Part shown: piece by piece, positions 2,278-45,973 of the stretch | Layout: the number at the start of each line of letters is the position of its first letter | Numbering within the stretch: the stretch's first letter is position 1 | Assembly (NCBI GenBank): GCA_964525595.1 | Contig: CAZGHF010000001.1 | Location: forward strand, 29,509-93,508 | Source: an uncultured Candidatus Saccharibacteria bacterium | Lineage (GTDB): Bacteria > Patescibacteriota > Minisyncoccia > UBA6257 > GWB1-50-10 | Direction of reading: 5' to 3' | DNA length: 64,000 nt | Program-made: the position numbers and the translations under genes | The notes under the pieces: model-generated | What the model saw: only the letters and a program-made list of their open reading frames with translations | Database searches by the model: none | What the model was told of the DNA's origin: nothing

Positions 2278-2361
2278 GCCGAGGTGGTGAAATTGGCAGA
2301 CACGCTAGCTTTAGGAGCTAGTGCTCGCAAGGGCTTGTGGGTTCGAGTCCCACCCTCGGCA
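2278..2361 (+). tRNA. tRNA-Leu(TAG), long variable arm
   Basis: Hand-folded: acceptor GCCGAGG/CCTCGGC, anticodon stem CTAGC/GCTAG with loop TTTAGGA, variable-arm hairpin, T-arm GTGGG-TTCGAGT-CCCAC. Confidence 0.8.
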
Positions 2362-2363
2362 CA

Positions 2364-2657
2364 ATGTTGTTCACTCTTTATATACTTTATAGTTTAAAGA
2401 CGCCCCGGACTTACGTAGGTTATACCGCTGACTTGAAAGAGAGATTGAGATATCACAATAGCGGTAGAGTAAGAGCAACAAAACCCTATGTGCCGTGGAA
2501 AATTATTTATACGGAAGATAGTTTAACTAAAGAAGAAGCTAAGAAAAGAGAAATTTATTGGAAAAGTGGCGCTGGCAGACGCAATATCAATAGAATCTTA
2601 AGTGGGTTCCCGCCCCAATTGAAATCGGGGCGAGGCTCGCTCAAGACCGAGTCTTGA
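2364..2657 (+). CDS. GIY-YIG nuclease superfamily protein (short YhbQ/UPF0213-like)
   Basis: Translation ...TYVGYTADLKERLRYHNSGRV...KPYVPWKIIYTE...KEEAKKREIYWKSGAGRRNI matches the GIY-YIG motif pattern (GY-YxG, R, HN, E, K-N). Start taken at the ATG at 2364, just after the tRNA. The C-terminal tail runs into hairpin-rich sequence, so the true stop may be earlier. Confidence 0.65.
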   Translation: MLFTLYILYSLKTPRTYVGYTADLKERLRYHNSGRVRATKPYVPWKIIYTEDSLTKEEAKKREIYWKSGAGRRNINRILSGFPPQLKSGRGSLKTES

Positions 2658-2661
2658 GCGG

Positions 2662-2681
2662 CGAGTCCCACCCTCGGCACA
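2662..2681 (+). repeat. 20-bp direct repeat of the tRNA-Leu 3' end (cgagtcccaccctcggcaca)
   Basis: Identical to 2344..2363 (last T-loop nucleotides, T-stem 3' half, acceptor 3' half, discriminator). It is a partial tRNA 3' fragment and not a functional tRNA. Confidence 0.8.
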
Positions 2682-2727
2682 TTCAGTAAAATTGACAAAA
2701 GATTTAATGGGGAATAGTTTGTAAGGT

Positions 2728-3210
2728 ATGGAATTGCTTTTTAATAGTTCTTTTGGTTTAAAACTTGACGTGGCTCAGGTGGTGGCGGAGGTTTTGCGTT
2801 TCATGAAAAGCGACCCGAAGCGGCAATACAAAATCATTATCGGGACCGACTCCGAAGCGCTCCGGAGCAAGAACGCCGACTTTGTAACGGCGGTGGTGGT
2901 TCACCGAATCGGCAACGGCGGCCGTTATTTCTGGCGCCGACTCCAAGCCGGCAAGTTCCACACTATTCGCGACCGGATAATAAAAGAAGTGATGCTTTCG
3001 CTTGAAGCCGCTCACCTCTTTTTGGGAGAACTTAAAAAAGATTCTTCATCTAAAAACTGGAGTTTTGAGATTCACGCCGATATCGGCGAGAACGGGCAAA
3101 CAAAGGTGCTTATTCAGGAAGTGGTTGGAATGATTCGGGCCAATAATTTTGAGGTAAAAACGAAGCCGGAGAGTTACGCCGCGACCAAGGTAGCCGATAG
3201 GCATGTCTAA
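2728..3210 (+). CDS. DUF458 / YkuK-like RNase H-fold protein
   Basis: KIIIGTDSE...ADFVTAVVVHRIGNGGRYF...FEIHADIGENG resembles the YkuK/DUF458 family, recalled from memory. Confidence 0.5.
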   Translation: MELLFNSSFGLKLDVAQVVAEVLRFMKSDPKRQYKIIIGTDSEALRSKNADFVTAVVVHRIGNGGRYFWRRLQAGKFHTIRDRIIKEVMLSLEAAHLFLGELKKDSSSKNWSFEIHADIGENGQTKVLIQEVVGMIRANNFEVKTKPESYAATKVADRHV

Positions 3211-3781
3211 AAAAATCGTTTTTGACATTGAAACCAAAAACACCTTCGCCGACGTCGGCGGAGACCAGAATATTGATAAGCTTGAAGTTTCGGTGGTCGG
3301 GGTTTATTCGTACGACAAGGACGAATACATCTGTTTTGACGAGAACGAACTTGATGAGCTGGGTAGGTTTCTGAAGAGTGCCAGCCCCCTCATCGGTTTT
3401 AGCAGTAAGAGGTTTGATGTGCCGGTCTTGGAAAAATATTTTGATTTTAAATTATCCGCCGTTCCCCATTACGACATCCTGGAAGAGATTACGAAAGCTT
3501 TCGGTCGGCGAATTGGCTTGGGCGTGCTTGCCGAGGCCAATCTCGGCATCGGCAAAACCAGCCACGGCCTTGAGGCAATCGGGATGTACGCTCGCGGCGA
3601 GATGGAGAAGTTAAAAAATTACTGCCTTCAGGATGTAAAGATAACCAAAGAGATATTCGACCTTATTCGCAACCAGGGTTATCTTTGGATTCCCCAGCGG
3701 GACGTGCCGGACATGATTAAACTCCCTCTGACTTATAAAGAGGAAGATTCGCCGCAAGCTGGATTATTTGGTAATATTTAA
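3203..3781 (+). CDS. DEDDy-type 3'-5' exonuclease domain protein (DnaQ/PolB-exo-like)
   Basis: Exo I VFDIET, Exo II GFSSKRFDVPVL, Exo III YCLQDV. Overlaps the upstream gene by 8 nt. Confidence 0.6.
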   Translation: MSKKIVFDIETKNTFADVGGDQNIDKLEVSVVGVYSYDKDEYICFDENELDELGRFLKSASPLIGFSSKRFDVPVLEKYFDFKLSAVPHYDILEEITKAFGRRIGLGVLAEANLGIGKTSHGLEAIGMYARGEMEKLKNYCLQDVKITKEIFDLIRNQGYLWIPQRDVPDMIKLPLTYKEEDSPQAGLFGNI

Positions 3782-3787
3782 AGAGAT

Positions 3788-4111
3788 ATGAGTCCGAAGA
3801 AAAATAAAACTTTGGTTACAGTTGTGGTGCTTTTCTTGGCTTTTGGCTTGGTAATCGCTTATGTGCCGCTTCTTTTTGCTCCTTCATCTGATGAACCGAG
3901 CCAGGTTTATTTTAAGGAACAGCAGCAAGAGATTCCGGTTGATGTACCGGCTGAATTACCGGTAACAGCCCAACTCACATTACCGGTTACCGAGCCGGAA
4001 ACGGAAGTTGCTACCACGACTCCAATTGAAGAAGAAATAAGCCTACCCGATAGTTTCAGCGGTCTTGAAGAAGAAAGTGAATCTTTAGAAGACTTGTTCG
4101 ACGGCTTTTAA
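3788..4111 (+). CDS. hypothetical small membrane-anchored protein with acidic C-terminus
   Basis: 107-aa ORF with N-terminal TM segment (LVTVVVLFLAFGLVIAYVPLLF) and E/D-rich tail. Confidence 0.4.
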   Translation: MSPKKNKTLVTVVVLFLAFGLVIAYVPLLFAPSSDEPSQVYFKEQQQEIPVDVPAELPVTAQLTLPVTEPETEVATTTPIEEEISLPDSFSGLEEESESLEDLFDGF

Positions 4112-4228
4112 TACGTCACCGAAACGTTCGGTAATTTCCCTTTTTGCTTCGCCGATTGGGGTAGAAGTGATAAGATTTATTTAGTTCATCTCAAGAAGAC
4201 TTAAAACCCCCAGGGGAGGGATTTAGAT

Positions 4229-4975
4229 ATGGGAATGGTTCTGAAAGTTCTGGAGAGAGCGGGGCCTCGGCCGGAGGATTTCGAGAAGGGAGCGGTTCAC
4301 GAGCTTGAGGAAGCTTACCGGTTAAGGAAAACCGCAGTTCGGGCGTCCAAGGCCGGTATCCGAGCCGCGAAGAAGAGAGACGCCCGCGGTGTCAGTCACG
4401 AAAAGGCAAAAATCCAACAGTGTATGCAGAAGATTCAGGCTTTAGACTTGGTGCCCGCCTGGAGACGTGCTGAGTTCATTGACCAAGTGGCGGCTGAACT
4501 CGTGGAACTCGTCTGCTTCGAGTGGCTCTATCCGTACGTCTTCTTCGGGGACGAAATCGGTTCGCCGGAGTTCCTCTCGGCAAAACGGTTGGAAGTGTCA
4601 CCTCAGGCGTGGTATCACGGCATTGCCGACGTTCCCGGGGAGCTGGGAAAGGCAGTTACGAGGTATCGCCGGGGTCGGCTTCCACTGAAGGAGAAAGTTG
4701 TTCTTCGTGAGCGGCTGCTAGTGGTCATTCAGGACATCATCTCCTACCTTACGGATGCGACTGATGAGAGCGTTCTCGAGATAACCGGTCATGAGAAAGA
4801 TTTCCGTCGCCGGTTTGAGGGTAAGGTTGCCCGGATTGGCGCGCTCATCAACAGATTGAACGAGGAGATGATTGAATTGCTAGACCGGATTCAACTCCTG
4901 AAGGAAATCCGTCAGGCGGTGAGCGGAACTCCTCGAGAAGAAAAAGAAGCTGGCGGTGAGGACGACTCTTCCTGA
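4229..4975 (+). CDS. hypothetical protein on a GC-rich island
   Basis: 248-aa ORF preceded by GGGGAGGG 8 nt upstream of the ATG. About 60-65% GC against a ~43% background. No family recognised. Confidence 0.55.
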   Translation: MGMVLKVLERAGPRPEDFEKGAVHELEEAYRLRKTAVRASKAGIRAAKKRDARGVSHEKAKIQQCMQKIQALDLVPAWRRAEFIDQVAAELVELVCFEWLYPYVFFGDEIGSPEFLSAKRLEVSPQAWYHGIADVPGELGKAVTRYRRGRLPLKEKVVLRERLLVVIQDIISYLTDATDESVLEITGHEKDFRRRFEGKVARIGALINRLNEEMIELLDRIQLLKEIRQAVSGTPREEKEAGGEDDSS

Positions 4976-5003
4976 AGTAATCCTGTCCCTGTAAGCACTG
5001 GTC

Positions 5004-5044
5004 CCGGCACGAGTATGACAATCGTGCCGGGGCTTCAGTTTTTT
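5004..5044 (+). terminator. intrinsic terminator (cccggcacga...tcgtgccggg then T-run)
   Basis: 10-bp GC-rich stem followed by gcttcagtttttt, directly after the 4229..4975 gene. Confidence 0.7.
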
Positions 5045-5070
5045 AATGAATTTAGTTATATTAAGAGGAC

Positions 5071-6918
5071 TTGAAAATGAAGATTTTTGGTAAAAATTTA
5101 TTCTGGGTGATTGCCACTTTCATCGCCGTGACAATTGTTTTTTCTCTGCTTTTAAATTTAGGAGTAGAGAAACCGCCGGTTTTAAGCATTAGCCAGGTAA
5201 CGGAAAAAATAAACGCCGGCGAAGTAAAAAGTATCGCGGTAAAAGGCAACAACCTTGAACTGGTTTTAAAAGATGAAAGTAAAGCGGTCTCGAGAAAAGA
5301 GGAAGAAGCCGGTTTTTCGGAAACCTTAAGGAATTACGGCGTGGAAACGGAGGCGCTCCGCGGCGTTGAACTCAAGGTGGAGGAAGAGAGCGGTCTCCGT
5401 TTCTGGTCGGGCGTTATCATTCCCACCGTTCTTCCTATAATAATAATCGTCTTTATTTTTTGGTGGATTTTCCGCCAGGCTCGCACCGGCGTTAACCAGG
5501 CTTTTACTTTCGGTAAAGCTAACATTCGTGTGTTTTCAGCTTCCCGGAAGAAAGTAACCTTTAATGATGTTGCCGGCTTGAAAGAATCAAAAGAGGAGCT
5601 TGAAGAAATCGTTGACTTTTTGAAAAACCCGAAAAAGTTTCTATCAATCGGTGCCCGGATTCCGCGCGGCGTGCTTCTTTTGGGTCAGCCTGGGACAGGG
5701 AAAACTTTACTCGCGAGGGCAGTGGCCGGTGAAGCAAGCGTCCCTTTCTTTCACCTCTCCGCTTCCGAATTTGTTGAAATGTTCGTCGGAGTGGGTGCCT
5801 CTCGGGTAAGAGATCTTTTTAACACCGCCAAAAAAGTCGCCCCTTCCATTGTTTTTATTGACGAGATTGACGCTGTCGGTCGCGAGCGGGGCGCCGGCTT
5901 GGGCGGGGGGCACGATGAGCGGGAGCAAACCTTGAATCAAATCTTGGTTGAAATGGATGGTTTTGAGCGGGATACGAACGTGATTGTGATAGCGGCGACC
6001 AACCGGCCTGATATTTTGGATTCGGCTCTTCTCCGACCCGGTCGTTTTGACCGGCGAGTGGTGCTTGATATGCCCGGTATTACCGACCGCGAGGCAATAT
6101 TAAAAATCCACGTCCGGGAGGTACCGCTTGAGAAAAAGGTAGATTTGAAAGTAGTAGCTATTCGGACGCCGGGATTCTCGGGCGCCGACCTTGCCAACCT
6201 CGTAAATGAAGCGGCGATTCTTACTGCCCGCACCGGTCGCAAAGTCGTTTCTCAGAAAGATTTTTTTGACTCGATTGAGAAAGTAATGCTCGGCCCTGAA
6301 CGTAAAAGCCGGGTGATTTCCAAAAATGAAAAAGAAATAACCGCTTATCACGAAGCCGGCCACGCCTTGGTTGCGGCAAGCCTGAAAGAGGCCGACCCGG
6401 TTCACAAGATATCGATAGTCTCCCGCGGAGTTGCTAGTGGCTACACCTTAAAATTGCCAACCGAGGATCGGCGCTTGGCAACCAGGGCCCAGTTTTTGGC
6501 GGACTTAGCCGTTGCTTTCGGTGGCTACGTTGCCGAGATGATAAAATTCGGTGACCTGTCAACCGGTTCTTCCAATGACATCAAACAAGCCACAGCCCTT
6601 GCCCACCAGATGGTTACCCAGTTCGGGATGAGCGATAAATTGGGTCCCCGGACTTTCGGCAAAAATCAGGAACTCATTTTTCTCGGTCGGGAAATCTCAT
6701 CTGAGAAAGATTATTCGGAAACGGTTGCTTCAATCATTGATGAGGAAGTGAACAACTTCATTAATAAAGCGCTCCAAGCAGCGAAAAGGATAGTTTCCAC
6801 CAGAAAAAAAGCTCTTGAGAAAATTGCAAAGACGTTGATAGAAAAGGAAACTCTCGAGCAGGAAGAATTTTACAAAATAATAAAAAGCTTTAAACTAAAA
6901 CCGGTGACTATAAGGTAA
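5071..6918 (+). CDS. ftsH: ATP-dependent zinc metalloprotease FtsH
   Basis: N-terminal TM helices, AAA Walker [19 protein letters not shown], second region of homology, zinc site HEAGHAL. Confidence 0.95.
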
Positions 6919-6920
6919 TT

Positions 6921-6993
6921 GGGTCAGTAGCTTAGCGGCTAAAGCACCAAGCTTATACCTTGGCGATCGAAGGTTCGAGTCCTTCCTGACCCA
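6921..6993 (+). tRNA. tRNA with anticodon TAT (Ile, reads AUA)
   Basis: Hand-folded: acceptor GGGTCAG/CTGACCC, D-stem GCTT/AAGC, anticodon stem CCAAG/CTTGG with loop CTTATAC (U33, anticodon UAU, A37), T-arm GAAGG-TTCGAGT-CCTTC. Confidence 0.7.
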
Positions 6994-7001
6994 CCGACTC
7001 C

Positions 7002-7073
7002 GCGCGCTTAGCTCAGTGGTAGAGCGACTCGTTTACACCGAGTAGGTCCGGGGTTCGATCCCCTGAGCGCGCA
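7002..7073 (+). tRNA. tRNA-Val(TAC)
   Basis: Acceptor GCGCGCT/AGCGCGC, D-arm TAGCTCAGTGGTAGAGC, anticodon stem ACTCG/CGAGT with loop TTTACAC, T-loop TTCGATC. Confidence 0.8.
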
Positions 7074-7118
7074 CAAGATCAGCCTCGTTCAAAAAAGCCT
7101 TAATGCATTTTTTTCTTT

Positions 7119-9077: not shown

Positions 9078-11120
9078 ATGGATTTAAACAGAAAAATTTA
9101 CAAAACCAAAGTCGGCGGCGAGGAATTAACCCTTGAGATTTCCAAATTGGCTCAGAAAGCCGACGGTGCGGTTTTGGCGCGGTACGGTGCAACTGCAGTG
9201 CTTGCAACCGTAGTGATGTCGGAAAAAAACGGGACGAGTGACTTTTTCCCGCTTACCGTTGATTATGAAGAGAAATTTTACGCGGCGGGTAAAATCCTCG
9301 GCTCGAGATTTATAAGGCGCGAGGGTCGGCCGTCCGACGAGGCCACTCTTTCCGCTCGGCTTATTGACCGAACCATCCGCCCGCTTTTTGACGAGCGCTT
9401 AAGAAGAGAAATTCAGGTGACGGCAACCATTCTTGCTTACGACGAGAAACACGACCCGGATGTGCCGGCTCTCATCGCCGTTTCAACTGCTCTAGGAATC
9501 TCCGATATTCCCTGGGATGGACCGGTAGCGGGAGTGCGAATAATGAAGAACGGAGAAGAAAAAATTTTGTATAATGCATTTTTCGCCGGGCCCAAAGGAC
9601 GGGTAAATATGATTGAATTTGAAGGCCAGGAAACAAAGGAGGAAGAACTTATCCGGGTTTTCAATGAAAGCACTAAAGAAATCGATAAACTCATCGATTT
9701 TCAGGAAAATATCATAGAAGAAATTGGCAAACCGAAGACCAAAGTCGAATTAATTGAGGTTGACCCGAGAATTCAGAAGCAAGTCAGAGATTTCATAAGC
9801 AAAGACCTTGAGAAAGCAATCAAAGAAAAAACTTTAGGGGAGTTAAAGCGTAACCTGATGAGTCACCTTGAGGAGTCGGATGAATCGGCCGAGTCTTTGA
9901 GCATGGCCAGCATCGTCTTCGAGGACGAAATCGGCAATTCCTTAAAGAAAGAAATCCTGGAGAAAGAGAGCCGTTCCGACGGCAGGAAGCTGGACGAAGT
10001 TCGACCCCTTTATGGCGAAGTCGGAATTTTTGAGAGAATCCACGGCTCCGGTCTTTTTATCCGTGGTGAAACTCAGGTTCTTGCAATTACAACCCTTGCA
10101 CCGTTATCAGCCGGTCAGCTCGTCGAAACGATGAAATTTACCGGTAAAAAGAAATTCATGCTTCACTACAACTTTCCGAAATTTTCGGTTGGTGAAGCCG
10201 GCCGCTCCCGCGGTCCTGGCCGCCGGGAAATTGGTCACGGTACCCTTGCTGCAAAATCGGTACAAGCGGTCTTGCCAACTGAAGAGGAATTTCCCTACAC
10301 CATAAGAGTGGTAACCGAAACGCTTTCTTCAAACGGCTCGACATCAATGGCTTCCGCTTGTGCCACTTCACTTTCTTTAATGGATGCGGGTGTGCCCTTA
10401 AAGAAACACGTTGCCGGTATTTCAGTCGGTATAGTTTTGGATAAAGAGAAAGATGGTTTCAAGCTTTTGACTGACATCCAGGGCCCCGAGGACCATCATG
10501 GCGGCATGGACCTCAAGGTGGCTGGCACCGATGACGGCGTAACCGCGGTTCAGATGGACGTGAAAATCAGAGGAATAACCCCCGAGATTTTTGAGAAGGC
10601 TCTTGGTCAAGCCAAGGACGCAAGAGAAAAAATTTTAAAATTAATGAAGGATACAATCCCCGCGCCGCGGCCGGAAATATCTTCCTTTGCGCCGACCATC
10701 CTTACTTTGAATATCAAACCGGAGTCAATAGGAGAGGTAATTGGTCCTGGAGGACGGACTATAAACGGCATTATCGATTCGGTCGGTAATGATACCACGA
10801 TTGACATTGAAGAGGATGGTCGGGTTTTTATTGCGAGCTCGAGTCGGGAGTCCGCCGAGAAAGCACTTCTGCGTGTAAAGGCGATAGTAAGAGAGTACAA
10901 ACCGGGCGAAATCGTTGAAGGACCGGTTGTTCGTGCCCTTGATTTTGGCGCGATTGTTGATTTGGGCGGTGGCCGGGACGGCATGATTCACGTCTCCGAA
11001 CTAAAAGACGGCTTCGTCAAGAAGGTTGAAGATGTGGTGAAAATTGGTGATGTCGTGAAAGCAAAAGTGTTGAGGGTGGAGAACGGCCGTATTGCTCTCT
11101 CATTAAAGAACGTGAAATAA
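9078..11120 (+). CDS. pnp: polynucleotide phosphorylase
   Basis: Two RNase PH domains, then KH (IGEVIGPGGRTINGI) and S1 (GEIVEGPVVRALDFGAIVDLGGGRDGMIHVSEL) domains. 680 aa. Confidence 0.95.
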   Translation: MDLNRKIYKTKVGGEELTLEISKLAQKADGAVLARYGATAVLATVVMSEKNGTSDFFPLTVDYEEKFYAAGKILGSRFIRREGRPSDEATLSARLIDRTIRPLFDERLRREIQVTATILAYDEKHDPDVPALIAVSTALGISDIPWDGPVAGVRIMKNGEEKILYNAFFAGPKGRVNMIEFEGQETKEEELIRVFNESTKEIDKLIDFQENIIEEIGKPKTKVELIEVDPRIQKQVRDFISKDLEKAIKEKTLGELKRNLMSHLEESDESAESLSMASIVFEDEIGNSLKKEILEKESRSDGRKLDEVRPLYGEVGIFERIHGSGLFIRGETQVLAITTLAPLSAGQLVETMKFTGKKKFMLHYNFPKFSVGEAGRSRGPGRREIGHGTLAAKSVQAVLPTEEEFPYTIRVVTETLSSNGSTSMASACATSLSLMDAGVPLKKHVAGISVGIVLDKEKDGFKLLTDIQGPEDHHGGMDLKVAGTDDGVTAVQMDVKIRGITPEIFEKALGQAKDAREKILKLMKDTIPAPRPEISSFAPTILTLNIKPESIGEVIGPGGRTINGIIDSVGNDTTIDIEEDGRVFIASSSRESAEKALLRVKAIVREYKPGEIVEGPVVRALDFGAIVDLGGGRDGMIHVSELKDGFVKKVEDVVKIGDVVKAKVLRVENGRIALSLKNVK

Positions 11121-11166: not shown

Positions 11167-12354
11167 ATGGCTGAAGATAAATTTAATCAAGATAGTCGGC
11201 CTGAAGGCGGAGAAAAAAAGCCGACTCAGCCGAATGTTGACGTAAGGACCTTTGGTTCCGATGTAAAGTCGGTAGCAGATTCAGGCGGTGGGTCGCCAAA
11301 ATCTTACACCCCGGCTACTCCTCCGCCGTCCCCTAAACTCCCAGAAACCCAAGCGCCGGATCGACCTGAAAGAACTCCTTTAGAGGTCGAAAAGAAACCC
11401 GAGATGAAACAATCTTTTGGTGAAGTTTTCCCATCTGTTTCTAAAGAAAAAACCCCAACCCCTGCTCCTGCTCCGATGAGTTTTGAAGCCGGCGGTTTAG
11501 GGGCCGAAGGAGTGAAAACAAAAAAATCTCCAAAAGGGCTTTTTATTGGAATTCTTGTCTTAATAATAATCGTTGGCCTCTTCGCTGTTGGTTACTTCTT
11601 CGTTTATCCCTTTTTCTTCGGCGGTGAAACGGAAGAAGCTGCTGAGGTTCCTCCTCCTGTATCCGCGCCTGAATCTTCTGCGGAGGTGCCGGCCGTGCCG
11701 GAGATTCCGGAAGTCCCAGTGGTGACTGAAAGTGGAACAACAACACCGGCTGAAGGAGAAGAAACGGCAACCGAGCCGGAAGCACCGGCAGAGACTACTC
11801 TTACCGAGCACGCTTCTTTGTTCGTCAGTGCGGCTGATGCGAGTTCAGATGCTACTCTTTCCGAGCTTAATGTTTCCGCTTACAAGGGTTCGTTGGAGTT
11901 TACAACTGCCGAGGTTTCCGTTCTCAATGAACAGGTCTTCAAAGACAGCGAAGGCGTTCTTATAAACTTCACCAATTTAGCGGGAGCTCTCTTGCCGGGT
12001 ATCTTTACGGAGAATCTGAGCCAGTCATTTGAATCGGATTTCACTTTCTTTACTTACACCGACAGCAAAGGAACCTGGCCGGGATTTATCGCAAAACTCG
12101 GTAGTGACGCGGTTTTGGCCGACGTTCAAACCCAGGTGGCGGGCTTAGAAACAAGCGAGAATTTGGCAAACCTTTATTTGACCGACCCCGGGAGCCAAAC
12201 TTCCTGGAAGAGTGGTACCGTCGAGGGCGTGTCCAACCGCTACCTGTCTTTCAGCCTTGACGGCGCGAGTTTGAACTACGGCTGGCAGGACAACCTCTTG
12301 GTTGTCAGTACCTCATTCTCCGGTTTTCAGGAGACCCTGAAGCGACTGAAGTAA
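11167..12354 (+). CDS. hypothetical membrane protein with Pro/Glu-rich low-complexity regions
   Basis: 395-aa ORF with P-rich N-terminus, one TM helix (LFIGILVLIIIVGLFAVGYFFVYPFFF), an E/P/T-rich linker and a C-terminal globular part. Confidence 0.5.
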   Translation: MAEDKFNQDSRPEGGEKKPTQPNVDVRTFGSDVKSVADSGGGSPKSYTPATPPPSPKLPETQAPDRPERTPLEVEKKPEMKQSFGEVFPSVSKEKTPTPAPAPMSFEAGGLGAEGVKTKKSPKGLFIGILVLIIIVGLFAVGYFFVYPFFFGGETEEAAEVPPPVSAPESSAEVPAVPEIPEVPVVTESGTTTPAEGEETATEPEAPAETTLTEHASLFVSAADASSDATLSELNVSAYKGSLEFTTAEVSVLNEQVFKDSEGVLINFTNLAGALLPGIFTENLSQSFESDFTFFTYTDSKGTWPGFIAKLGSDAVLADVQTQVAGLETSENLANLYLTDPGSQTSWKSGTVEGVSNRYLSFSLDGASLNYGWQDNLLVVSTSFSGFQETLKRLK

Positions 12355-12358
12355 GGGC

Positions 12359-12387
12359 TTGATTTTTAGTAGAAATTTATCTACACT
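12359..12387 (+). promoter_or_regulatory. sigma70-like promoter TTGATT-N17-TACACT inside a repeated ~50-bp element
   Basis: TTGATT at 12359-12364 and TACACT at 12382-12387, about 30 nt upstream of the 12417 start. Confidence 0.5.
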
Positions 12388-12416
12388 AGTTTACTATTAA
12401 CCTTAAAATCAATAAT

Positions 12417-13724
12417 ATGCGTTATTTATTGTCAATATTAATAATTTCATTGGTTTTTGGTGGCTTTACTTTTTCCCCTGCCTTAGCCCAAGAAACCACA
12501 TCTGCTGATACAGCAGAAACAGAATTAGGGCTTACTCCAGACAGTCCTTTTTATTTTTTAGATGGCCTTTGGAAGTCAGTCCGTTTAACCTTTACTTTTA
12601 ATAAGGTAAAGAAAACTGAGCTGCGGCTTAAATTTGCCGAAGAAAAATTAGCTGAAGCCGAAAAAATGCAGGCTGAAAATAAGATAACAGCAATGGAAAA
12701 GGCTCTTAAGCGCTACCAACTGCAAGTGGAGCGGGCTGGAGAACAAGCTGAGCGCCGGGAAGAAGTGGCTGAAAAGGTAGCTGAAGCAACCGCTAAACAC
12801 CTGGGATTTCTGGAAAGGATTCGCGAAAAAGCACCGGAAAAAGCCCAAGAAGCATTATTAAAAGCCAAAGAGGTTTCAGAAATAGGCCATTTTAAGGCTA
12901 TTGAGGTATTGCGCAAAATAAAACCAGAACAAGCCAAGAAAATAGAAATATCAAACTTTGTCCAAGTAAAAGTCCGGATTGAAAAGCAAGTCCAAGAACG
13001 CAAAGAAAGACAAGAAAAAGTTCAAACCGGAACTCAAAACAAGGTTCAAATCCAGACCGAAGGAGATATTAAAGAAACAAAGTCATTATGGGAACGGCTT
13101 AAAATCCGCCTGCGAACACAAGACTATATAGCAGTTGATTGTATGGATGAAAAAGGGAATTTTGTCCCTTGTGAAAAAGACGATAAACTAATCAAACCAA
13201 CAACTGATTGTATGGATGAAAAAGGGAATTTTATCCCTTGTGAAAAAGACGATAAACTAATCAAACCAACAACTGATTGTATGGATGAAAAAGGGAATTT
13301 TATCCCTTGTGAAAAAGACGATGAACTAATCAAACCAACAACGATTAATTCTTCGGACTTCCAGCCCCGAAATCTAACCTATGAAATTCAAGAAAAAGGC
13401 GTTCTGATTAAATGGGACTCTCCCTTGGAAACAAGCGACATCGTAAAGTATCAAATCTCAACTAAAGGATGGGGGGTTCGTTGGGTTGAAGTAACCAGAA
13501 CTGATCAAACAAATTATTATCTAAGAAGAAATATGGATGAGAATATCTGTGACCTGGATGTCAGAATTACTCCGGTAAGCACTGAAGGGAAAGAATTGTC
13601 TTATTCAGCTGCTTTTCTACACAACATAAAGCATGTGGCTGATAAAGATACTTGGAATAAAGATTGCGGTCCAATAAATACCACCACTAACGTTAATGAC
13701 ACTACTACAACTCAATCTCAATAA
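12417..13724 (+). CDS. secreted protein with signal peptide, coiled-coil region, three 23-aa tandem repeats and an FN3-like domain
   Basis: Signal peptide MRYLLSILIISLVFGGFTFSPALAQE, K/E-rich helical segment, 3x DCMDEKGNF(I/V)PCEKDD(K/E)LIKPTT, then a WDSP...Y motif reminiscent of a fibronectin type III fold. Confidence 0.6.
   Translation: MRYLLSILIISLVFGGFTFSPALAQETTSADTAETELGLTPDSPFYFLDGLWKSVRLTFTFNKVKKTELRLKFAEEKLAEAEKMQAENKITAMEKALKRYQLQVERAGEQAERREEVAEKVAEATAKHLGFLERIREKAPEKAQEALLKAKEVSEIGHFKAIEVLRKIKPEQAKKIEISNFVQVKVRIEKQVQERKERQEKVQTGTQNKVQIQTEGDIKETKSLWERLKIRLRTQDYIAVDCMDEKGNFVPCEKDDKLIKPTTDCMDEKGNFIPCEKDDKLIKPTTDCMDEKGNFIPCEKDDELIKPTTINSSDFQPRNLTYEIQEKGVLIKWDSPLETSDIVKYQISTKGWGVRWVEVTRTDQTNYYLRRNMDENICDLDVRITPVSTEGKELSYSAAFLHNIKHVADKDTWNKDCGPINTTTNVNDTTTTQSQ
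13137..13343 (+). repeat. 3 x 69-bp near-identical in-frame tandem repeat
   Basis: Units at 13137-13205, 13206-13274 and 13275-13343 differ at only 1-3 positions. Confidence 0.85.
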
Positions 13725-13856
13725 AAATGGCTAGTAATCAAACAAGCTATTGCACAAACTGCGAGGTTGAAAGTGTTTGGCGGACACACGCCAGAAGAGT
13801 AGTAGCGAAGCTTAAAAACAGAGAAGAATTGTCCGCATAGCGACTGAAGCAAGGGC

Positions 13857-13884
13857 TTGATTTTTAGTAGAAATTATCTATACT
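13857..13884 (+). promoter_or_regulatory. second copy of the promoter element TTGATT-N16-TATACT upstream of nusA
   Basis: 13841..13888 (agcgactgaagcaagggcttgatttttagtagaaattatctatactggttt) is about 90% identical to 12341..12390. Confidence 0.5.
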
Positions 13885-13933
13885 GGTTTTAGTGTCCGCT
13901 CTTCCCATGAGCGGATGTTTAGTAAATAACGTT

Positions 13934-38075: not shown

Positions 38076-38084
38076 GTGTATTTG

Positions 38085-38171
38085 CGGAGGGTAGAGGATT
38101 CGAACCTCTGAGGGGATTTCTCCCCAACCGCATTTCGAGTGCGGCGCATTAGACCACTCTGCCAACCCTCC
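38085..38171 (-). tRNA. tRNA-Ser(CGA)
   Basis: Minus strand GGAGGGT-TG-GCAGAGTGGTCTAATGC-G-CCGCA-CTCGAAA-TGCGG-long variable arm-AGAGG-TTCGAAT-CCTCT-ACCCTCC-G. Confidence 0.8.
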
Positions 38172-38172
38172 G

Positions 38173-38244
38173 TCTCCCCGGCAGGAATCGAACCCACATT
38201 TAGGGTTTAGGAAACCCTCGTTCTATCCGTTGAACTACGGGGAG
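38173..38244 (-). tRNA. tRNA-Arg(CCT)
   Basis: Minus strand CTCCCCG-TA-GTTCAACGGATAGAAC-G-AGGGT-TTCCTAA-ACCCT-AAAT-GTGGG-TTCGATT-CCTGC-CGGGGAG-A. Resembles E. coli argW apart from two G-U pairs in the T-stem and a C1-G72 pair. Confidence 0.7.
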
Positions 38245-38343
38245 GTTGATTTTAACACTTTATATAAATTTGCCGTTCGAGTAAATCCCCCCCTGTGTAA
38301 TACTTGTCTAGAGAGCGAAGATTTGTTATTTTTTTGATATACT

Positions 38344-38415
38344 GCGCCCTTAGCTCAGTGGTAGAGTGCTTGCATGACACGCAAGAGGTCGGAAGTTCGA
38401 TCCTTCCAGGGCGCA
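38344..38415 (+). tRNA. tRNA-Val(GAC)
   Basis: Acceptor GCGCCCT/AGGGCGC, anticodon stem CTTGC/GCAAG with loop ATGACAC, CCA encoded. Confidence 0.8.
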
Positions 38416-38420
38416 CCAAG

Positions 38421-38493
38421 GGGCCGTTAGCTCAGTTGGTAGAGCGCTTCGATGGCATCGAAGAGGTCGTCGGTTCGAATCCGATACGGTCCA
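38421..38493 (+). tRNA. tRNA-Ala(GGC)
   Basis: Acceptor GGGCCGT/ACGGTCC with the G3:U70 alanine identity pair, anticodon stem CTTCG/CGAAG with loop ATGGCAT. Confidence 0.8.
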
Positions 38494-38512
38494 CAAATTC
38501 CAAAATCAAAAA

Positions 38513-39205
38513 ATGTCATTACCGAATCATATAGTAATTGTTCCCGATGGTAATCGCCGGTGGGCAAGAAAGCGGGGGAAGTCGGTCCGGTTTGGTCACA
38601 CCGAAGGCGCAAAAAACACTGAGAAAATTTTGAAAGCGGCGCTAGATATGGGTATTCCAAGCTTCACTTTTTGGGGGTGTTCGGTTTCAAATATCACGGA
38701 GCGTTCGCGGGTGGAGATAAAATTCATCCTCTTTATCTTTGAGCAGTACTTTAAGAAACTTCTGAAAAGAAAAGAGCTTGATGAGTACGGTATTCGCGTT
38801 CGCGTTCTCGGTCGCTGGACGGAAATTTTCCCCAAAAAAACACAGAAACCGATTCAGGAAGTTATTGAAAAAACAAAGAGAAATAAAAACAGGAACATGA
38901 CTTTTCTTCTCGCCTATGACGGCCGGGACGAAATGACAGAAGCAATAAAGAGCATTAGAAGGAAAAAGGGCAAGAAGATAGACAGGGATTTGGTTAAAGA
39001 AAATCTCTGGACGAGGGACCTTCCCCCGGTTGATTTGGTTATTCGCACCGGCGGTGAACCGCACTGGTCGGCCGGGCTCATGATGTGGGACGTGGCCGAA
39101 GCGCGGCTCCATTTTACGGAAACTCTCTGGCCGGCCTTTACTCCCGGGGAATTTGAGAAAATTGTAAAAGTGACCGGTAAAGTTGAGCGCCGTTACGGCA
39201 GATAA
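38513..39205 (+). CDS. uppS: undecaprenyl diphosphate synthase (isoprenyl transferase)
   Basis: HIVIVPDGNRRWARKRG N-terminal motif, 230 aa. Confidence 0.9.
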   Translation: MSLPNHIVIVPDGNRRWARKRGKSVRFGHTEGAKNTEKILKAALDMGIPSFTFWGCSVSNITERSRVEIKFILFIFEQYFKKLLKRKELDEYGIRVRVLGRWTEIFPKKTQKPIQEVIEKTKRNKNRNMTFLLAYDGRDEMTEAIKSIRRKKGKKIDRDLVKENLWTRDLPPVDLVIRTGGEPHWSAGLMMWDVAEARLHFTETLWPAFTPGEFEKIVKVTGKVERRYGR

Positions 39206-39243
39206 TTGAAGTGTTATCTTTTTTGTGTTAATTTCTGTTTGAC

Positions 39244-39316
39244 GGGCCCATAGCTCATCTGGTAGAGCGCCACATTTGCAATGTGGAGGTAACCGGTTCG
39301 AGTCCGGTTGGGTCCA
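39244..39316 (+). tRNA. tRNA-Ala(TGC)
   Basis: Acceptor GGGCCCA/TGGGTCC with G3:U70, anticodon stem CCACA/TGTGG with loop TTTGCAA, CCA encoded. Confidence 0.8.
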
Positions 39317-39382
39317 CCAACAGCGAAGAAAGTTCTTACGTGCTATAAGTAGAACTTGTAATGGTTTGTTATAATTTAATTA

Positions 39383-39643
39383 GTGAAAATAAGAAATAAA
39401 ACACTTCGTTTTATAGAATTTTTTCTGGTTGGGGTGGTTATGGGAATAATAGAGGACGTTCTCGCGGTTTGGCTTTCAACGGGGGAACAGATAACTTTCA
39501 GGGTGATTTGGATAGTTTTTCTTGTCGCCTTGCCGTTTGCGATAATAAGCGAGTACATTGTTGACCATCCGAAATTTTGGAAAACAATCTTTCGCATTAA
39601 GGACAATGGGAGCAGGGTTGAAAAGAAAAAGAATCCGCGTTAG
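39383..39643 (+). CDS. hypothetical small membrane protein
   Basis: 86-aa ORF with two hydrophobic helices. Confidence 0.35.
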   Translation: MKIRNKTLRFIEFFLVGVVMGIIEDVLAVWLSTGEQITFRVIWIVFLVALPFAIISEYIVDHPKFWKTIFRIKDNGSRVEKKKNPR

Positions 39644-39658
39644 CTTATAATATGCTTT

Positions 39659-39689
39659 AGGAGGCGTGGCAGAGTGGTTTAACGCGCTA
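39659..39689 (+). pseudogene. tRNA-Ser-like 5' fragment (acceptor 5' half plus D-arm only)
   Basis: GGAGGCGTGGCAGAGTGGTTTAACGCGC aligns with the 5' 28 nt of tRNA-Ser(CGA) (GGAGGGTTGGCAGAGTGGTCTAATGCGC). No matching 3' half (CGCCTCC) is found downstream. Confidence 0.5.
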
Positions 39690-39711
39690 GTATTGCTCCC
39701 TGTTTGTCCAA

Positions 39712-39810
39712 GAGCAAAGCGATTGGTAACAAACAACAGTCCGCCGGAATATAATGGAGGCGGAAAACTGACTAACTGAGCGAAGCGATTGGTTATAAAT
39801 CGCAATCCGC
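39712..39810 (+). repeat. two direct copies of the 34-bp repeat (GAGCAAAGCGATTGGTAACAAACAACAGTCCGCC / GAGCGAAGCGATTGGTTATAAATCGCAATCCGCC) separated by 31 bp
   Basis: Copies are about 70% identical to each other. The second copy is 97% identical to the reverse complement of 37964..37993. Each copy is followed by GGAGGCGG-like or tRNA sequence. Confidence 0.65.
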
Positions 39811-39818
39811 CATAGCGC

Positions 39819-39907
39819 GGTGGGGTGGCTGAGTCTGGTTGAAGGCGCCGCACTTGAAATGCGGTATATCTGAAAAGGTATCGTGGGTTCGAATCCCACC
39901 CCCACCG
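39819..39907 (+). tRNA. tRNA-Ser(TGA)
   Basis: Acceptor GGTGGGG/CCCCACC, anticodon stem CCGCA/TGCGG with loop CTTGAAA, variable-arm hairpin ATATC-TGAAAA-GGTAT, T-arm GTGGG-TTCGAAT-CCCAC. Confidence 0.75.
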
Positions 39908-39927
39908 CGCTGCGGCGGAAAAATTGT

Positions 39928-41127
39928 ATGCATTTATTCTGGCACTACCATTCGCATCGTATTGACAGGGACTTTAGTCCCGATTTTTGGTTATATGAAC
40001 TTGCCGTTTGGCTCCATGTTTTGGGGAGGTCGCTGATTGCGGTCTTTATACCGATTTTATTGCTGCAAATCGGTTATGAGCTGGGTGAGGTTATCTTTTT
40101 CTATCTAATTTACAACTTGATTGATGTTCCTCTTAGCTTTTTGGTTCGTCACCTGGTATGCAAAATAGGCGCCCGCTGGGTCGTTATTTTGGGGAAAATC
40201 TGGAGTATTGGTTTTTTTGTTCTCCTGGCGCTTATTACGTCAAATAGCTGGCCGCTTCTTATGTTGCTCGCTCTCTTCGGAGCCTTCTACGACACTTTCT
40301 ATTGGATTGGACACCGATTTCTCTTTATGAAAAGTACCGGCGAGGCGAGTGATGTGGGAACAAAGACGGGCGTTTTGTACGCCGTTCAGCGGTTTGCGGG
40401 TCTTATCGGTCCGGCTGCTGGCGCCGGGATTCTAGTATTTTTCAATCAGCAGGCGCTTATATACGTGAGCATCGCTATTTTGGTAATGTCTGTGTTTCCT
40501 CTGCTTAAAGTAAATGATTTTCCGGATAAGCCGGCAAAGAAACCCCTTCCGCTCAAAGTGTTTTTTGCCAAGTGGCGTGAGCGAAAGAATTTCCTTTCAG
40601 CCGGTTTTTTCTCGATTCATGGTTCGGCGGAAGGGGTTTTGTGGCCGCTTTTCATTTTTGTAGTTTTTAAAACCATTGAATCCGTGGCAATCGTGCCTGT
40701 TATTATTTCCATTACCGCCATTGCTTTCTCTTATTTTGCCGGTTATTTTCAGAGAACCGCTCGAGACAGAGCCATTGTATTTGGGGCGGCGCTTATCGCG
40801 CTGGTTTGGATTGCCCGAATGGTTGTGGATGCGGAATTGTTTCTTTTCGTGAGCGTGTTTCTAGTGAGTACATTTTCGATACTCGTTACCATACCTTTGA
40901 GCAGTGATATTTTCTCGCGCGGAAAGAAAATTGACCCGCTAAACACATCCACTTTTATGAATGTCGCTAACATGCTTGCTAAAGCCATCCTCTATGGAAT
41001 CCTTGCTCTTTTTGTTAATGTATTCGGCGTTGGTTTTGTTGTTGCCGTCGTGAGTTTAACGGCTATAATTGCCGTCCACTATATTTATCTTTTAATGAAG
41101 GGGCACCAAATGGAGCCGGCGAAATAG
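39928..41127 (+). CDS. polytopic membrane protein, probable MFS-type transporter
   Basis: About 400 aa with 10-12 predicted TM helices. Start taken at the ATG at 39928 because the ORF-track start at 39883 overlaps tRNA-Ser. Confidence 0.45.
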   Translation: MHLFWHYHSHRIDRDFSPDFWLYELAVWLHVLGRSLIAVFIPILLLQIGYELGEVIFFYLIYNLIDVPLSFLVRHLVCKIGARWVVILGKIWSIGFFVLLALITSNSWPLLMLLALFGAFYDTFYWIGHRFLFMKSTGEASDVGTKTGVLYAVQRFAGLIGPAAGAGILVFFNQQALIYVSIAILVMSVFPLLKVNDFPDKPAKKPLPLKVFFAKWRERKNFLSAGFFSIHGSAEGVLWPLFIFVVFKTIESVAIVPVIISITAIAFSYFAGYFQRTARDRAIVFGAALIALVWIARMVVDAELFLFVSVFLVSTFSILVTIPLSSDIFSRGKKIDPLNTSTFMNVANMLAKAILYGILALFVNVFGVGFVVAVVSLTAIIAVHYIYLLMKGHQMEPAK

Positions 41128-41196
41128 TTTACCCGGGAGAGTCGTTTTCTTGTTACAATTGCTTTGATGTGGCAGAATGCCTATGATTTGACATAA

Positions 41197-41718: not shown

Positions 41719-41736
41719 GAAATGGGAGCTTTAGGA

Positions 41737-42126: not shown

Positions 42127-42131
42127 TTATG

Positions 42132-42216: not shown

Positions 42217-42221
42217 AGTGG

Positions 42222-42293: not shown

Positions 42294-42294
42294 A

Positions 42295-44016: not shown

Positions 44017-44071
44017 AGGAGTATTTGTAAAACTAACAAAAAAGTGGTATAAACACAAGGAATTTCGTTTG

Positions 44072-44331: not shown

Positions 44332-44340
44332 CAAAAGGAT

Positions 44341-45971: not shown

Positions 45972-45973
45972 AA

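What the first reader, a model, noticed from the sequence alone, without database searches (positions are those of the whole stretch)
13137..13343. Three near-identical 69-bp in-frame tandem repeats inside a secreted FN3-like protein
Units (DCMDEKGNF[V/I]PCEKDD[K/E]LIKPTT) differ at only 1-3 nucleotides, indicating very recent expansion. Each unit carries two Cys. Copy number is a likely source of strain-level length variation in a surface or secreted protein.
Basis: seen in the sequence. Interest (0 to 1): 0.5.

Follow-up and report, generated by a model that had tools for sequence, protein, structure and literature searches.

The report
Triplicated cysteine linker in secreted protein
A recently inserted gene for a secreted protein of a Jorgensenbacteria-like (candidate phyla radiation) bacterium carries three almost identical 23-residue, two-cysteine units between its helical stalk and its fibronectin-III-like head; the repeat is real and independently supported, but it is an ordinary kind of in-frame tandem repeat and no copy-number variation could be shown.

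Summary
There are three head-to-tail 69-bp units at 13137-13343, differing at 1-3 bases. They lie in frame in a 435-aa ORF (12417-13724, + strand), and this is the only sizeable tandem repeat in the 64 kb window.

The protein has a Sec-type signal peptide, a DUF5667 helical stalk, three copies of DCMDEKGNF[V/I]PCEKDD[K/E]LIKPTT, and a C-terminal domain that models confidently as an FN3 fold.

The array is not an assembly artefact. Independent k=31 Logan contigs from several sequencing runs stop at 13194 and restart at 13293. A de Bruijn simulation predicts those positions only for arrays of three or more units, so three is a lower bound.

None of five relatives sharing the FN3-like domain has the unit. 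It is a lineage-specific triplication of the linker, and the unit matches no known family.

The whole gene is itself a lineage-specific insertion. Three syntenic relatives lack it, it has the lowest GC3 in the window, and a ~52-nt direct repeat flanks it and duplicates the nusA promoter.

Strain-level copy-number variation remains untested, because only one full-length sequence exists. I read the array as a spacer of probably cysteine-bridged hairpins. That function is inferred, not shown. Interest is modest.

The parts
12417..13724 (+). ORF of 435 aa: signal peptide, DUF5667 helical stalk, three 23-aa Cys units, FN3-like domain, Thr/Asn-rich tail
   Evidence: ORF list. An identical protein, P0001, is in public collections (NCBI and ENA, longest contig 194 kb). 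GC3 is 0.305, the lowest of 48 ORFs in the window (z = -2.4).
12417..12488 (+). Predicted Sec signal peptide (residues 1-24, cleavage after SPALA)
   Evidence: Read from the sequence: MRYLLSILIISLVFGGFTFSPALA|QE. S20-E26 are invariant in the alignment with P0002. This is an inference; no predictor was run.
12528..12839 (+). DUF5667 domain (residues 38-141). It lies within a long helical region, residues 44-235.
   Evidence: Pfam PF18915, E 2.6e-22, 79.5 bits against a cut-off of 27. The AlphaFold2 full-length model shows helices 44-86, 89-138, 141-167 and 170-235; pLDDT is only 55-78.
13137..13205 (+). Repeat unit 1, DCMDEKGNFVPCEKDDKLIKPTT (G at 13164, A at 13185)
   Evidence: The Logan contig L004 runs from upstream unique sequence through this unit's specific G and ends at 13194 = 13164+30.
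13206..13274 (+). Repeat unit 2, DCMDEKGNFIPCEKDDKLIKPTT (A at 13233, A at 13254). This is the middle-type unit.
   Evidence: The k=31 contig breaks require a unit carrying A28 and A49 to exist (simulation).
13275..13343 (+). Repeat unit 3, DCMDEKGNFIPCEKDDELIKPTT (A at 13302, G at 13323, G at 13343)
   Evidence: Logan contigs L006 and L007 start at 13293 = 13323-30 and continue into the FN3-like domain, nusA and the H+-pyrophosphatase gene.
13365..13673 (+). FN3-like domain (about residues 317-419) with two family-invariant Cys (C378, C417) and a terminal CGP motif
   Evidence: AlphaFold2 on alignment A3: pLDDT 80.9, pTM 0.75, seven strands. Foldseek against PDB: the top 15 matches at E<=0.001 are almost all FN3 domains. 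A profile search against PDB sequences gives only weak hits, nearly all to FN3 domains. HMMER hits to multi-FN3 proteins P0047 and P0051. Invariant columns are listed.
13674..13721 (+). Thr/Asn-rich C-terminal tail (INTTTNVNDTTTTQSQ), absent from relatives
   Evidence: Alignments. pLDDT is below 50.
12341..12392 (+). Left copy of the direct repeat flanking the inserted gene: the last 14 nt of the 395-aa gene (stop codon 12352-12354) plus a promoter-like TTGATT-N17-TACACT
   Evidence: the repeat finder family D2, the sequence itself, exactly two copies in the window, alignment with relatives.
13839..13889 (+). Right copy of the direct repeat: a relic of the 395-aa gene's 3' end (TAA changed to CAA) plus the promoter-like TTGATT-N16-TATACT ahead of the nusA leader
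   Evidence: About 48 of 52 positions are identical to the left copy.

Best explanation
The array is a genuine, evolutionarily recent, in-frame triplication of a 23-residue linker segment in a Sec-secreted protein of a Jorgensenbacteria-like Patescibacteria (candidate phyla radiation) bacterium.

Shown:
- The protein is built as signal peptide, DUF5667 helical stalk, three units, FN3-fold head.
- At least three units are present in independent read sets.
- Relatives with the same head domain have an ordinary acidic or proline-rich linker and no such unit.
- The gene itself is a lineage-specific, low-GC insertion between a 395-aa membrane-protein gene and nusA. It is flanked by a ~52-nt duplication that gives both genes a copy of the same promoter.

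Inferred:
- The units arose by slipped-strand mispairing or unequal recombination. Because 69 is a multiple of 3, gain or loss of units changes length without breaking the frame.
- Each unit folds as a short beta-hairpin (turn at EKGN) whose two ends are bridged by the CX9C cysteines, followed by an extended charged, Pro-Thr-ending tail (EKDDKLIKPTT). That tail resembles the ancestral linker.
- The array therefore acts as a semi-rigid, length-adjustable spacer that sets how far the FN3-like head projects from the helical stalk. The head is the likely binding module.
For: Repeat real and in frame.

At least three units in independent data:
- Logan contigs are k=31 de Bruijn contigs; all 31-mers within an accession are distinct by construction (PMC12424806).
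- L004 (SRR8482198; the same contig occurs in 5 samples) ends at 13194. L006 (SRR8482195) and L007 (SRR8482196) start at 13293.
- A k=31 simulation gives exactly these break points for 3, 4 or 5 units and an unbroken path for 1 or 2 units.

Architecture: DUF5667 at E 2.6e-22; FN3 fold (supporting).

Unit is lineage-specific:
- P0002/L002, P0049, P0050, P0066 and P0073 share the head domain but have no Cys unit.
- An exhaustive HMMER search of 1.84 billion representatives found no other protein carrying the unit.
- The P0050 linker 'PKKDDDKKLPT...LPLKPIDNDSFRPQSL' resembles the unit tail and junction 'EKDDKLIKPTT-INSSDFQPRNL'.

Hairpin: the full-length AlphaFold2 model places two short strands on either side of EKGN in each unit (242-243/249-250, 264-266/272-274, 287-289/295-297).

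A possible role for cysteines outside the cell in this family:
- Two Cys in the head domain are invariant in all six sequences.
- Other DUF5667 proteins carry thioredoxin, glutaredoxin or Kazal C-terminal modules.

Insertion:
- The synteny pnp / 386-391-aa gene / nusA / H+-pyrophosphatase gene has no intervening gene in L009, L010 and L011, whose PNPase is 78-79% identical.
- Flanking direct repeat. GC3 outlier.

Taxonomy: the best named PNPase hits are Candidatus Jorgensenbacteria and Patescibacteria.
Against: - The structural reading of the unit is weak. pLDDT in the repeat region is 28-37, and the modelled strand register does not put the two Cys directly opposite each other.
- No evidence was obtained that cysteines are oxidised outside the cell in this organism. 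Its closest PNPase relative comes from a groundwater metagenome (record name of L012), a setting that may be reducing.
- A spacer function is argued from position only. No binding partner of the FN3-like head is known.
- No second allele with another copy number exists in the databases, so 'length-adjustable' is a property of the DNA structure, not an observation.
- Near-identity of the units could reflect gene conversion rather than recency.
Confidence: 0.6

Rival explanations
1. Assembly artefact: the true genome has one unit (or two), and the three-unit array was produced by mis-assembly of strain variants.
For: The source is evidently a metagenome-assembled contig. Only one full-length sequence is on record. 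The array needs k>=90 to be free of repeated k-mers, so short-read assemblers can mishandle it.
Against: In a single-copy locus with strain SNPs, a k=31 graph would form bubbles that isolate the variant base on both sides. Instead, L004 runs uninterrupted from 6 kb of unique upstream sequence through the unit-1-specific G and stops exactly 30 nt later. L006 and L007 begin exactly 30 nt before the unit-3-specific G. Simulation shows this pattern needs a (G,A) unit, an (A,A) unit and an (A,G) unit in tandem; arrays of one or two units give an unbroken path. The same breaks are seen in at least three runs, and the upstream contig in five samples. Any error would more likely be an under-count, because extra middle-type units would collapse.
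Confidence: 0.04
2. The units are functional binding modules rather than a spacer. Either each CX9C pair, with the surrounding Asp/Glu (DCMDE...PCEKDD), binds a metal ion with the Cys reduced, or each hairpin is a small ligand- or adhesion-repeat and triplication raises avidity.
For: Each unit has two Cys and seven acidic residues. One unrelated 417-aa protein (P0069) is built of ~25-residue repeats with the same core and register, 'YDEKGNF[IV]PFKDAKLV' (E 1.4e-4 against the whole library; pairwise 41% over 63 residues). This suggests that a DEKGNF hairpin can be a structural repeat in its own right. An anoxic habitat would favour free thiols (inference).
Against: P0069 has aromatic residues where this unit has Cys, so the Cys are not part of any shared motif. 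The match is short and its score is boosted by repetition. Pfam, NCBIfam, PHROGs and PDB sequence searches give nothing significant for the unit. All relatives of the protein function without the unit. Variation within the units (V/I, K/E) shows no pattern.
Confidence: 0.2
3. Neutral expansion: a replication-slippage accident in a tolerant, disordered linker of a recently acquired accessory gene, with no selected function for the unit or its copy number.
For: Only this lineage has it. The repeat region has the lowest GC3 of the gene (0.232). AlphaFold2 confidence there is very low. Relatives have linkers of quite different length and sequence at this position, so the site tolerates change.
Against: A unit carrying two Cys is unusual for a neutral linker in a protein with only two other Cys. 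The frame and the unit boundaries are perfectly preserved. These are weak arguments, so this rival is hard to separate from the best explanation without population data.
Confidence: 0.16

Closest known systems
Size-variable bacterial surface proteins with near-identical in-frame tandem repeats (e.g. alpha C / Rib proteins of group B Streptococcus; Vlp/Vsa lipoproteins of Mycoplasma). Comparison from my own knowledge, not tested here.
   Same: Near-identical tandem units whose length is a multiple of three, lying in an exported protein between an N-terminal region and a distal module. The DNA structure allows gain or loss of whole units by slippage or recombination without a frameshift.
   Different: There are only three units of 23 residues (the Rib/alpha C repeats, as I recall, are ~79-82 residues in about 9-12 copies). 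No variation between strains was observed here. There is no cell-wall anchor or lipobox. The organism is an uncultured Patescibacteria bacterium. The unit has no sequence relation to those repeats.
DUF5667 (Pfam PF18915) proteins of Patescibacteria and other uncultured bacteria
   Same: The N-terminal half is a clear member (E 2.6e-22). As in other members, a signal peptide or membrane helix and a helical DUF5667 region precede a variable C-terminal module. Modules seen among the hits include Kazal, thioredoxin, glutaredoxin, trypsin-like protease and parvulin.
   Different: The C-terminal module here is a rare FN3-like 'CGP' domain; only five relatives were found in 1.84 billion representatives. 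The Cys-unit array between stalk and head is unique. The family has no known function, and no paper in the searchable library mentions it.
Fibronectin type III domain (Pfam PF00041)
   Same: Seven-strand beta-sandwich model matching solved FN3 domains. It has the N-terminal 'P.NL.YEI..GVLIKW..P' and 'Y.I' signature, and HMMER hits to multi-FN3 proteins.
   Different: It scores below the Pfam gathering threshold (14.5 against 25 bits). It has a family-specific invariant Cys pair and a terminal CGP motif.
Twin-CX9C (CHCH) proteins of the mitochondrial intermembrane space (comparison from my own knowledge)
   Same: The CX9C spacing. Pfam gives a sub-threshold touch on NDUF_B7 (E 0.024).
   Different: CHCH domains have two CX9C motifs on two antiparallel helices, joined by two disulfides. 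Here there is one CX9C per unit, around a Gly-Asn turn that is modelled as strands. It is not a member.
P0069-type 'YDEKGNF[IV]' hairpin repeats (uncharacterised 417-aa protein from the representative library)
   Same: Same core DEKGNF[IV]P, the same following KD.KL[IV]K, and a similar period of ~23-26 residues.
   Different: No cysteines, no DUF5667 or FN3 context, no known family. The similarity may be convergent or due to chance.

Membership tests
DUF5667 (PF18915) | Match to the Pfam model above the gathering score | tested here: met
   79.5 bits against a cut-off of 27, E 2.6e-22, residues 38-141 covering model positions 1-98 of 99. 45 of the 46 database hits to the full protein carry PF18915 alone or with other domains.
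Fibronectin type III (PF00041) | Match to the Pfam model above the gathering score | tested here: not met
   14.5 bits against a cut-off of 25, E 0.041, only model positions 2-53. The relative P0049 also falls below threshold (17 bits).
Fibronectin type III (fold level) | Seven-strand beta-sandwich superposable on solved FN3 domains | tested here: met
   AlphaFold2 pLDDT 80.9, pTM 0.75, seven strands. Foldseek against PDB gives 15 matches at E<=0.001, almost all FN3 domains; titin Fn3-90 and I110 have target-normalised TM 0.73-0.75 and rmsd 2.7-2.9 A.
FN3-like 'CGP' domain subfamily (defined here from P0001, P0002, P0049, P0050, P0066, P0073) | Invariant W, Y, two Cys and the terminal C-G-P | tested here: met
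   Invariant columns P13 G24 L26 W29 P32 Y41 I43 G47 C74 G87 A95 I100 C113 G114 P115 in alignment A3.
Size-variable tandem-repeat surface protein (VNTR-type) | Near-identical in-frame tandem units in an exported protein | tested here: met
   Three 69-bp units at 97-99% identity, in frame. The signal peptide is read from the sequence.
Size-variable tandem-repeat surface protein (VNTR-type) | Different copy numbers in different strains or clones | not testable with these tools
   There is one full-length sequence only (cluster of one member on two contigs). Other read sets give k=31 contigs that break inside the array. Relatives have zero units.
Size-variable tandem-repeat surface protein (VNTR-type) | Attachment to the cell surface (sorting signal, lipobox or membrane anchor) | tested here: not met
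   No Cys in the signal peptide region, no LPXTG-like motif and no C-terminal hydrophobic segment in the translated sequence. After cleavage the protein has no evident anchor. The relatives P0050, P0066 and P0073 do have an N-terminal membrane helix.
Twin-CX9C / CHCH domain | Two CX9C motifs on paired helices within one domain | tested here: not met
   There is one CX9C per 23-residue unit, modelled as strands around a Gly-Asn turn. Pfam NDUF_B7 scores 14.7 bits against a cut-off of 26.

The most novel reading that the evidence does not exclude
The 23-residue CX9C unit is a previously undescribed, autonomously folding cysteine-bridged (or metal-binding) mini-module. It was born within a linker of a freshly acquired surface-exposed protein of an episymbiotic Patescibacteria bacterium. 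Its copy number varies within natural populations and tunes how far the FN3-like head reaches toward a host cell. On this reading the locus is a contingency locus for host attachment in a candidate-phyla-radiation organism.
Probability: 0.08. Interest if true: 0.5.

Novelty: new member of a known kind. Interest (0 to 1): 0.25.

Why it matters
In-frame, near-identical tandem repeats in exported proteins are a well-known route to length variation, so the finding does not change any concept.

Its modest value is local.
- It marks an accessory, recently inserted gene in an otherwise strongly syntenic housekeeping block of a Jorgensenbacteria-like genome.
- It documents a small FN3-like 'CGP' head domain attached to the uncharacterised DUF5667 stalk.
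- It shows a linker segment in the act of expanding.

If population data showed copy-number polymorphism, the locus would be a convenient strain marker and a candidate determinant of cell-cell contact in an uncultured episymbiont.

The k=31 break-point argument is also a reusable way to verify short tandem arrays from public unitig collections without access to reads.

Tried and rejected
1. A search of 5.8 billion proteins with the repeat plus head region (residues 233-435) returned nothing, not even the identical protein P0001. I treat this as a failure of the word-index step on a repetitive query, not as evidence.
2. A genome-contig scan with the head-domain alignment gave 91 pattern matches, none confirmed. 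Neither the source genome nor any orthologue is among the GTDB species representatives.
3. A genome-contig scan with a degenerate DNA pattern for CMDExGNFxPC gave one match, in a Chloroflexia MAG (L003). It has a stop codon just upstream and no similarity outside the pattern, so it is a chance match.
4. A metagenome-contig scan found only L002, a near-identical strain of the P0002 organism, again without the unit.
5. P0048 is a 1488-aa protein with about twenty 23-residue repeats 'TDMVDGNNAVPVECDQESTRPQT' (E 2.7e-23). I rejected it as a relative. It has one Cys per unit, about 33% identity, a score that accumulates over 12 stretches, and an otherwise low-complexity sequence.
6. Exact look-ups of the 435-aa protein in the contig index failed. 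I reached the locus through the neighbouring genes instead.
7. Phage or defence origin of the inserted gene: no PHROGs or NCBIfam match. The flanks of the orthologue P0002 (L001) share nothing with the flanks here, so no common cassette boundary was found.
8. The full-length AlphaFold2 model was poor (pLDDT 52.9), so I did not use it for fold searching.
9. The afdb50 fold library was unavailable.
10. No paralogue of the gene exists elsewhere in the window.
Full report
**1. The observation**

Window 13137-13343 holds three head-to-tail 69-bp units. Tandem Repeats Finder reports period 69, 3.1 copies, 97% matches, no indels and score 401. The repeat finder gives three gap-free copies at 100, 99 and 97% identity.

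The units differ at three positions only:
- unit position 28: G/A/A, giving Val/Ile/Ile;
- unit position 49: A/A/G, giving Lys/Lys/Glu;
- unit position 69: T/T/G, synonymous.

The array begins at codon 241 of the ORF 12417-13724 on the + strand, so it is in frame. It encodes DCMDEKGNF[V/I]PCEKDD[K/E]LIKPTT three times, each with a CX9C cysteine pair. It is the only tandem repeat of any size in the 64 kb window; the other is a 33-nt run of a 7-mer. A degenerate pattern for the unit start occurs three times against none in shuffles.

**2. Is it an assembly artefact?**

The identical 435-aa protein is in public collections on two contigs, the longest 194 kb (P0001). That is probably the same assembly deposited twice.

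Independent evidence came from the neighbours. The PNPase and the 395-aa protein upstream lie on a Logan contig from SRR8482198 (L004; the same contig occurs in five samples). That contig carries the first 259 codons of the gene and ends at window position 13194. The H+-pyrophosphatase downstream lies on Logan contigs from SRR8482195 and SRR8482196 (L006, L007), which begin at window position 13293.

Logan contigs are built from a k=31 de Bruijn graph in which every 31-mer of an accession is distinct (PMC12424806). Position 13194 is exactly 30 nt after the unit-1-specific G at 13164. Position 13293 is exactly 30 nt before the unit-3-specific G at 13323.

I simulated k=31 unitigs for arrays of one to five units. 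Arrays of one or two units give an unbroken path. Arrays of three, four or five units, which all contain a middle (A28, A49) unit, break at exactly 13194 and 13293.

Several read sets therefore contain at least three unit types in the assembled order. The exact number is not fixed by these data. The region is free of repeated k-mers only at k>=90, and additional middle-type units would collapse. Three is a lower bound.

**3. What the protein is**

- *Signal peptide.* The N-terminus, MRYLLSILIISLVFGGFTFSPALA|QE, reads as a Sec signal peptide with an AXA cleavage site. SPALAQE is invariant in the alignment with P0002. This is an inference from the sequence.
- *Stalk.* Residues 38-141 match DUF5667 (PF18915, E 2.6e-22). 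A low-confidence AlphaFold2 model makes residues 44-235 almost continuously helical.
- *Head.* After the repeats comes a ~105-residue domain that Pfam fn3 touches only below threshold (E 0.041).

An exhaustive HMMER search of 1.84 billion representatives with residues 241-435 found five relatives of this domain: P0002, P0049 and P0050, which are all DUF5667 proteins, and the short membrane-anchored P0066 and P0073. It also gave weaker hits to proteins that Pfam shows to be multi-FN3 (P0047 at 1e-60, P0051 at 5.5e-25).

The six-sequence alignment has invariant W, Y, two Cys and a terminal CGP. AlphaFold2 on that alignment gave pLDDT 80.9 and pTM 0.75 with seven strands. Foldseek against the PDB returned almost exclusively FN3 domains; titin Fn3-90 and I110 have target-normalised TM 0.73-0.75 and rmsd 2.7-2.9 A. 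A profile search against PDB sequences likewise listed nearly only FN3 domains, all weakly.

'Secreted FN3-like protein' is therefore supported at the fold level. Membership of Pfam fn3 by score is not met.

**4. Where the unit comes from**

None of the relatives has the unit.
- P0002 (47% identical in the MAFFT alignment A1; BLASTP best local alignment 41%) has the acidic linker 'EGEKTQEDDKKVDENKDDYADASFNYMPNNL' at that place.
- L002, a second strain of the P0002 organism, has the same linker.
- P0049 has a Pro-rich linker.
- P0050 has 'PKKDDDKKLPT...LPLKPIDNDSFRPQSL', which resembles the unit's tail and the junction 'EKDDKLIKPTT-INSSDFQPRNL'.

I therefore read the unit as an expanded piece of the ancestral linker that includes a lineage-specific Cys hairpin.

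The unit matches no family in Pfam, NCBIfam, PHROGs or PDB sequences. Two library hits fall on the repeat region:
- P0048 is a low-complexity protein with 23-residue single-Cys repeats. I regard this as a repetition-driven chance match.
- P0069 has ~25-residue repeats, 'YDEKGNF[IV]PFKDAKLV', that share core and register with the unit but lack the cysteines. This is a weak lead that the DEKGNF segment is a hairpin-forming motif.

**5. Genomic setting**

The best named PNPase relatives are Candidatus Jorgensenbacteria and Patescibacteria, at 62-79% identity. The closest PNPase relative comes from a groundwater metagenome (record name of L012).

Three contigs from relatives with 78-79% identical PNPase (L009, L010, L011) keep the gene order integrase-like gene / rpsO / NYN-domain gene / pnp / 386-391-aa gene / nusA / H+-pyrophosphatase gene. 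They have only ~80-220 nt between the membrane-protein gene and nusA, and no DUF5667 gene.

In the window the extra ~1.45 kb is bracketed by a direct repeat, 12341-12392 and 13839-13889, about 48 of 52 positions identical and present only twice in the window. The repeat consists of the last 14 nt of the 395-aa gene plus a promoter-like TTGATT-N16/17-TA(C/T)ACT. In the right-hand copy the stop codon TAA has become CAA. The relatives have the same promoter once.

The gene's GC3 is 0.305, against 0.475-0.508 for its neighbours. It is the lowest of 48 ORFs (z = -2.4). The orthologue P0002 sits in an unrelated context.

The gene is therefore a lineage-specific, probably horizontally acquired insertion that duplicated its target, so that both it and nusA have a copy of the promoter. 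The units differ by 1.4-4.3% and the flanking duplication by about 8%. The triplication is thus no older than the insertion, unless gene conversion keeps the units alike (inference).

**6. How it most likely works**

*Shown:* a real array of three or more units, in frame, between a helical stalk and an FN3-fold head of an exported protein, absent from all relatives.

*Inferred:*
- The array arose by slipped-strand mispairing or unequal recombination.
- Each unit forms a short hairpin around EKGN. The AlphaFold2 full-length model places paired short strands there in all three units, though at pLDDT 28-37.
- The hairpin is bridged by its two Cys and followed by an extended charged, Pro-Thr-ending tail.
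- The array serves as a semi-rigid spacer that lengthens the reach of the head domain.
- The invariant Cys pair in the head domain, and the thioredoxin, glutaredoxin and Kazal modules on other DUF5667 proteins, are indirect hints that cysteines matter outside the cell in this family.

*Rivals:* metal or ligand binding by the Cys/Asp/Glu-rich units; a neutral slippage product in a tolerant linker; an assembly artefact (largely excluded).

Every database relative has zero units, and the only full-length allele has three.

**7. Comparison with what is known, and verdict**

The closest known kind is the size-variable surface protein with near-identical in-frame repeats, such as alpha C/Rib of group B streptococci and the Vlp/Vsa lipoproteins of mycoplasmas (my own knowledge). 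The DNA anatomy matches. The defining observation, different copy numbers in different strains, could not be tested, and no surface anchor is evident.

The protein is a member of DUF5667 by score and of FN3 by fold only. It is not a twin-CX9C protein. The unit itself is new as a sequence but small and found in a single lineage.

I rate this as a new member of a known kind, of modest interest (0.25). The side observation of a target-duplicating single-gene insertion in a conserved Patescibacteria housekeeping block is at least as interesting as the repeat itself.

Noticed in passing
window 12341-12392 and 13839-13889 (inserted segment about 12393-13838): The whole DUF5667-FN3 gene is a lineage-specific ~1.45-kb insertion between the 395-aa membrane-protein gene and nusA. 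It is flanked by a ~52-nt direct repeat that duplicates the 3' end of the upstream gene and the nusA promoter. Three syntenic relatives (L009, L010, L011) lack the gene, and its GC3 is the lowest in the window. No integrase, transposase or cassette boundary that would explain the insertion was identified.
   Followed up: partly
window 13890-13933; L011 about 5055-5098; L009 about 10365-10400: The nusA leader holds a hairpin, UCCGCUC-UUCCCAU-GAGCGGA (8 pairs, -13.8 kcal/mol, z = -1.9). Together with the following TGTTTAGTAAATAA it is identical base for base in L011, a genome whose PNPase is only 79% identical. The stem CCGCTC/GAGCGG, with a different loop and a following T-run, recurs in L009. 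It may be an autoregulatory attenuator of nusA.
   Followed up: partly
window 13892 versus 13934: The longest nusA ORF starts at GTG 13892, but alignment with relatives places the real start at ATG 13934 (MDLK...), downstream of the conserved leader hairpin. Gene callers on the Logan contigs chose yet another start, giving 445 aa.
   Followed up: partly
window 61384-61416: A 7-nt tandem repeat (AAAGTCA, 4.7 copies) lies inside the 677-aa ORF 59601-61634, where it encodes a short KSKVKSQK-type stretch. The period is not a multiple of three, so slippage here would shift the frame.
   Followed up: no
window 11167-12354: The conserved 395-aa neighbour has a Pro/Glu/Thr-rich N-terminal region, one membrane helix and a C-terminal domain with no Pfam family. 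Its only hit is a low-complexity touch on gliding-motility GltJ, far below the cut-off. It is syntenic with pnp and nusA in all relatives examined.
   Followed up: no
P0003, P0004, P0005 (DUF5667 relatives): Several DUF5667 proteins end in a conserved Cys motif, C.QVIT[PR]A.NP.[ST]..[VC].[DE]F.TPC[DE]VP.GW. Its 'F..PC[DE]' end faintly resembles the unit's 'NF[VI]PCE'. Others carry Kazal, thioredoxin, glutaredoxin, trypsin-like or parvulin modules. DUF5667 looks like a general stalk for extracytoplasmic modules.
   Followed up: no
tool behaviour: The word-indexed protein search with residues 233-435 returned no hit at all, not even the identical database protein P0001. HMMER on the representative library found P0001 at 2.6e-129. 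Repetitive queries may defeat the candidate step of that tool.
   Followed up: no
window 2278-7074 and 38084-46045: The 64 kb window holds fifteen tRNA genes, twelve of them clustered in 38-46 kb. This is dense for the window but was not examined further.
   Followed up: no
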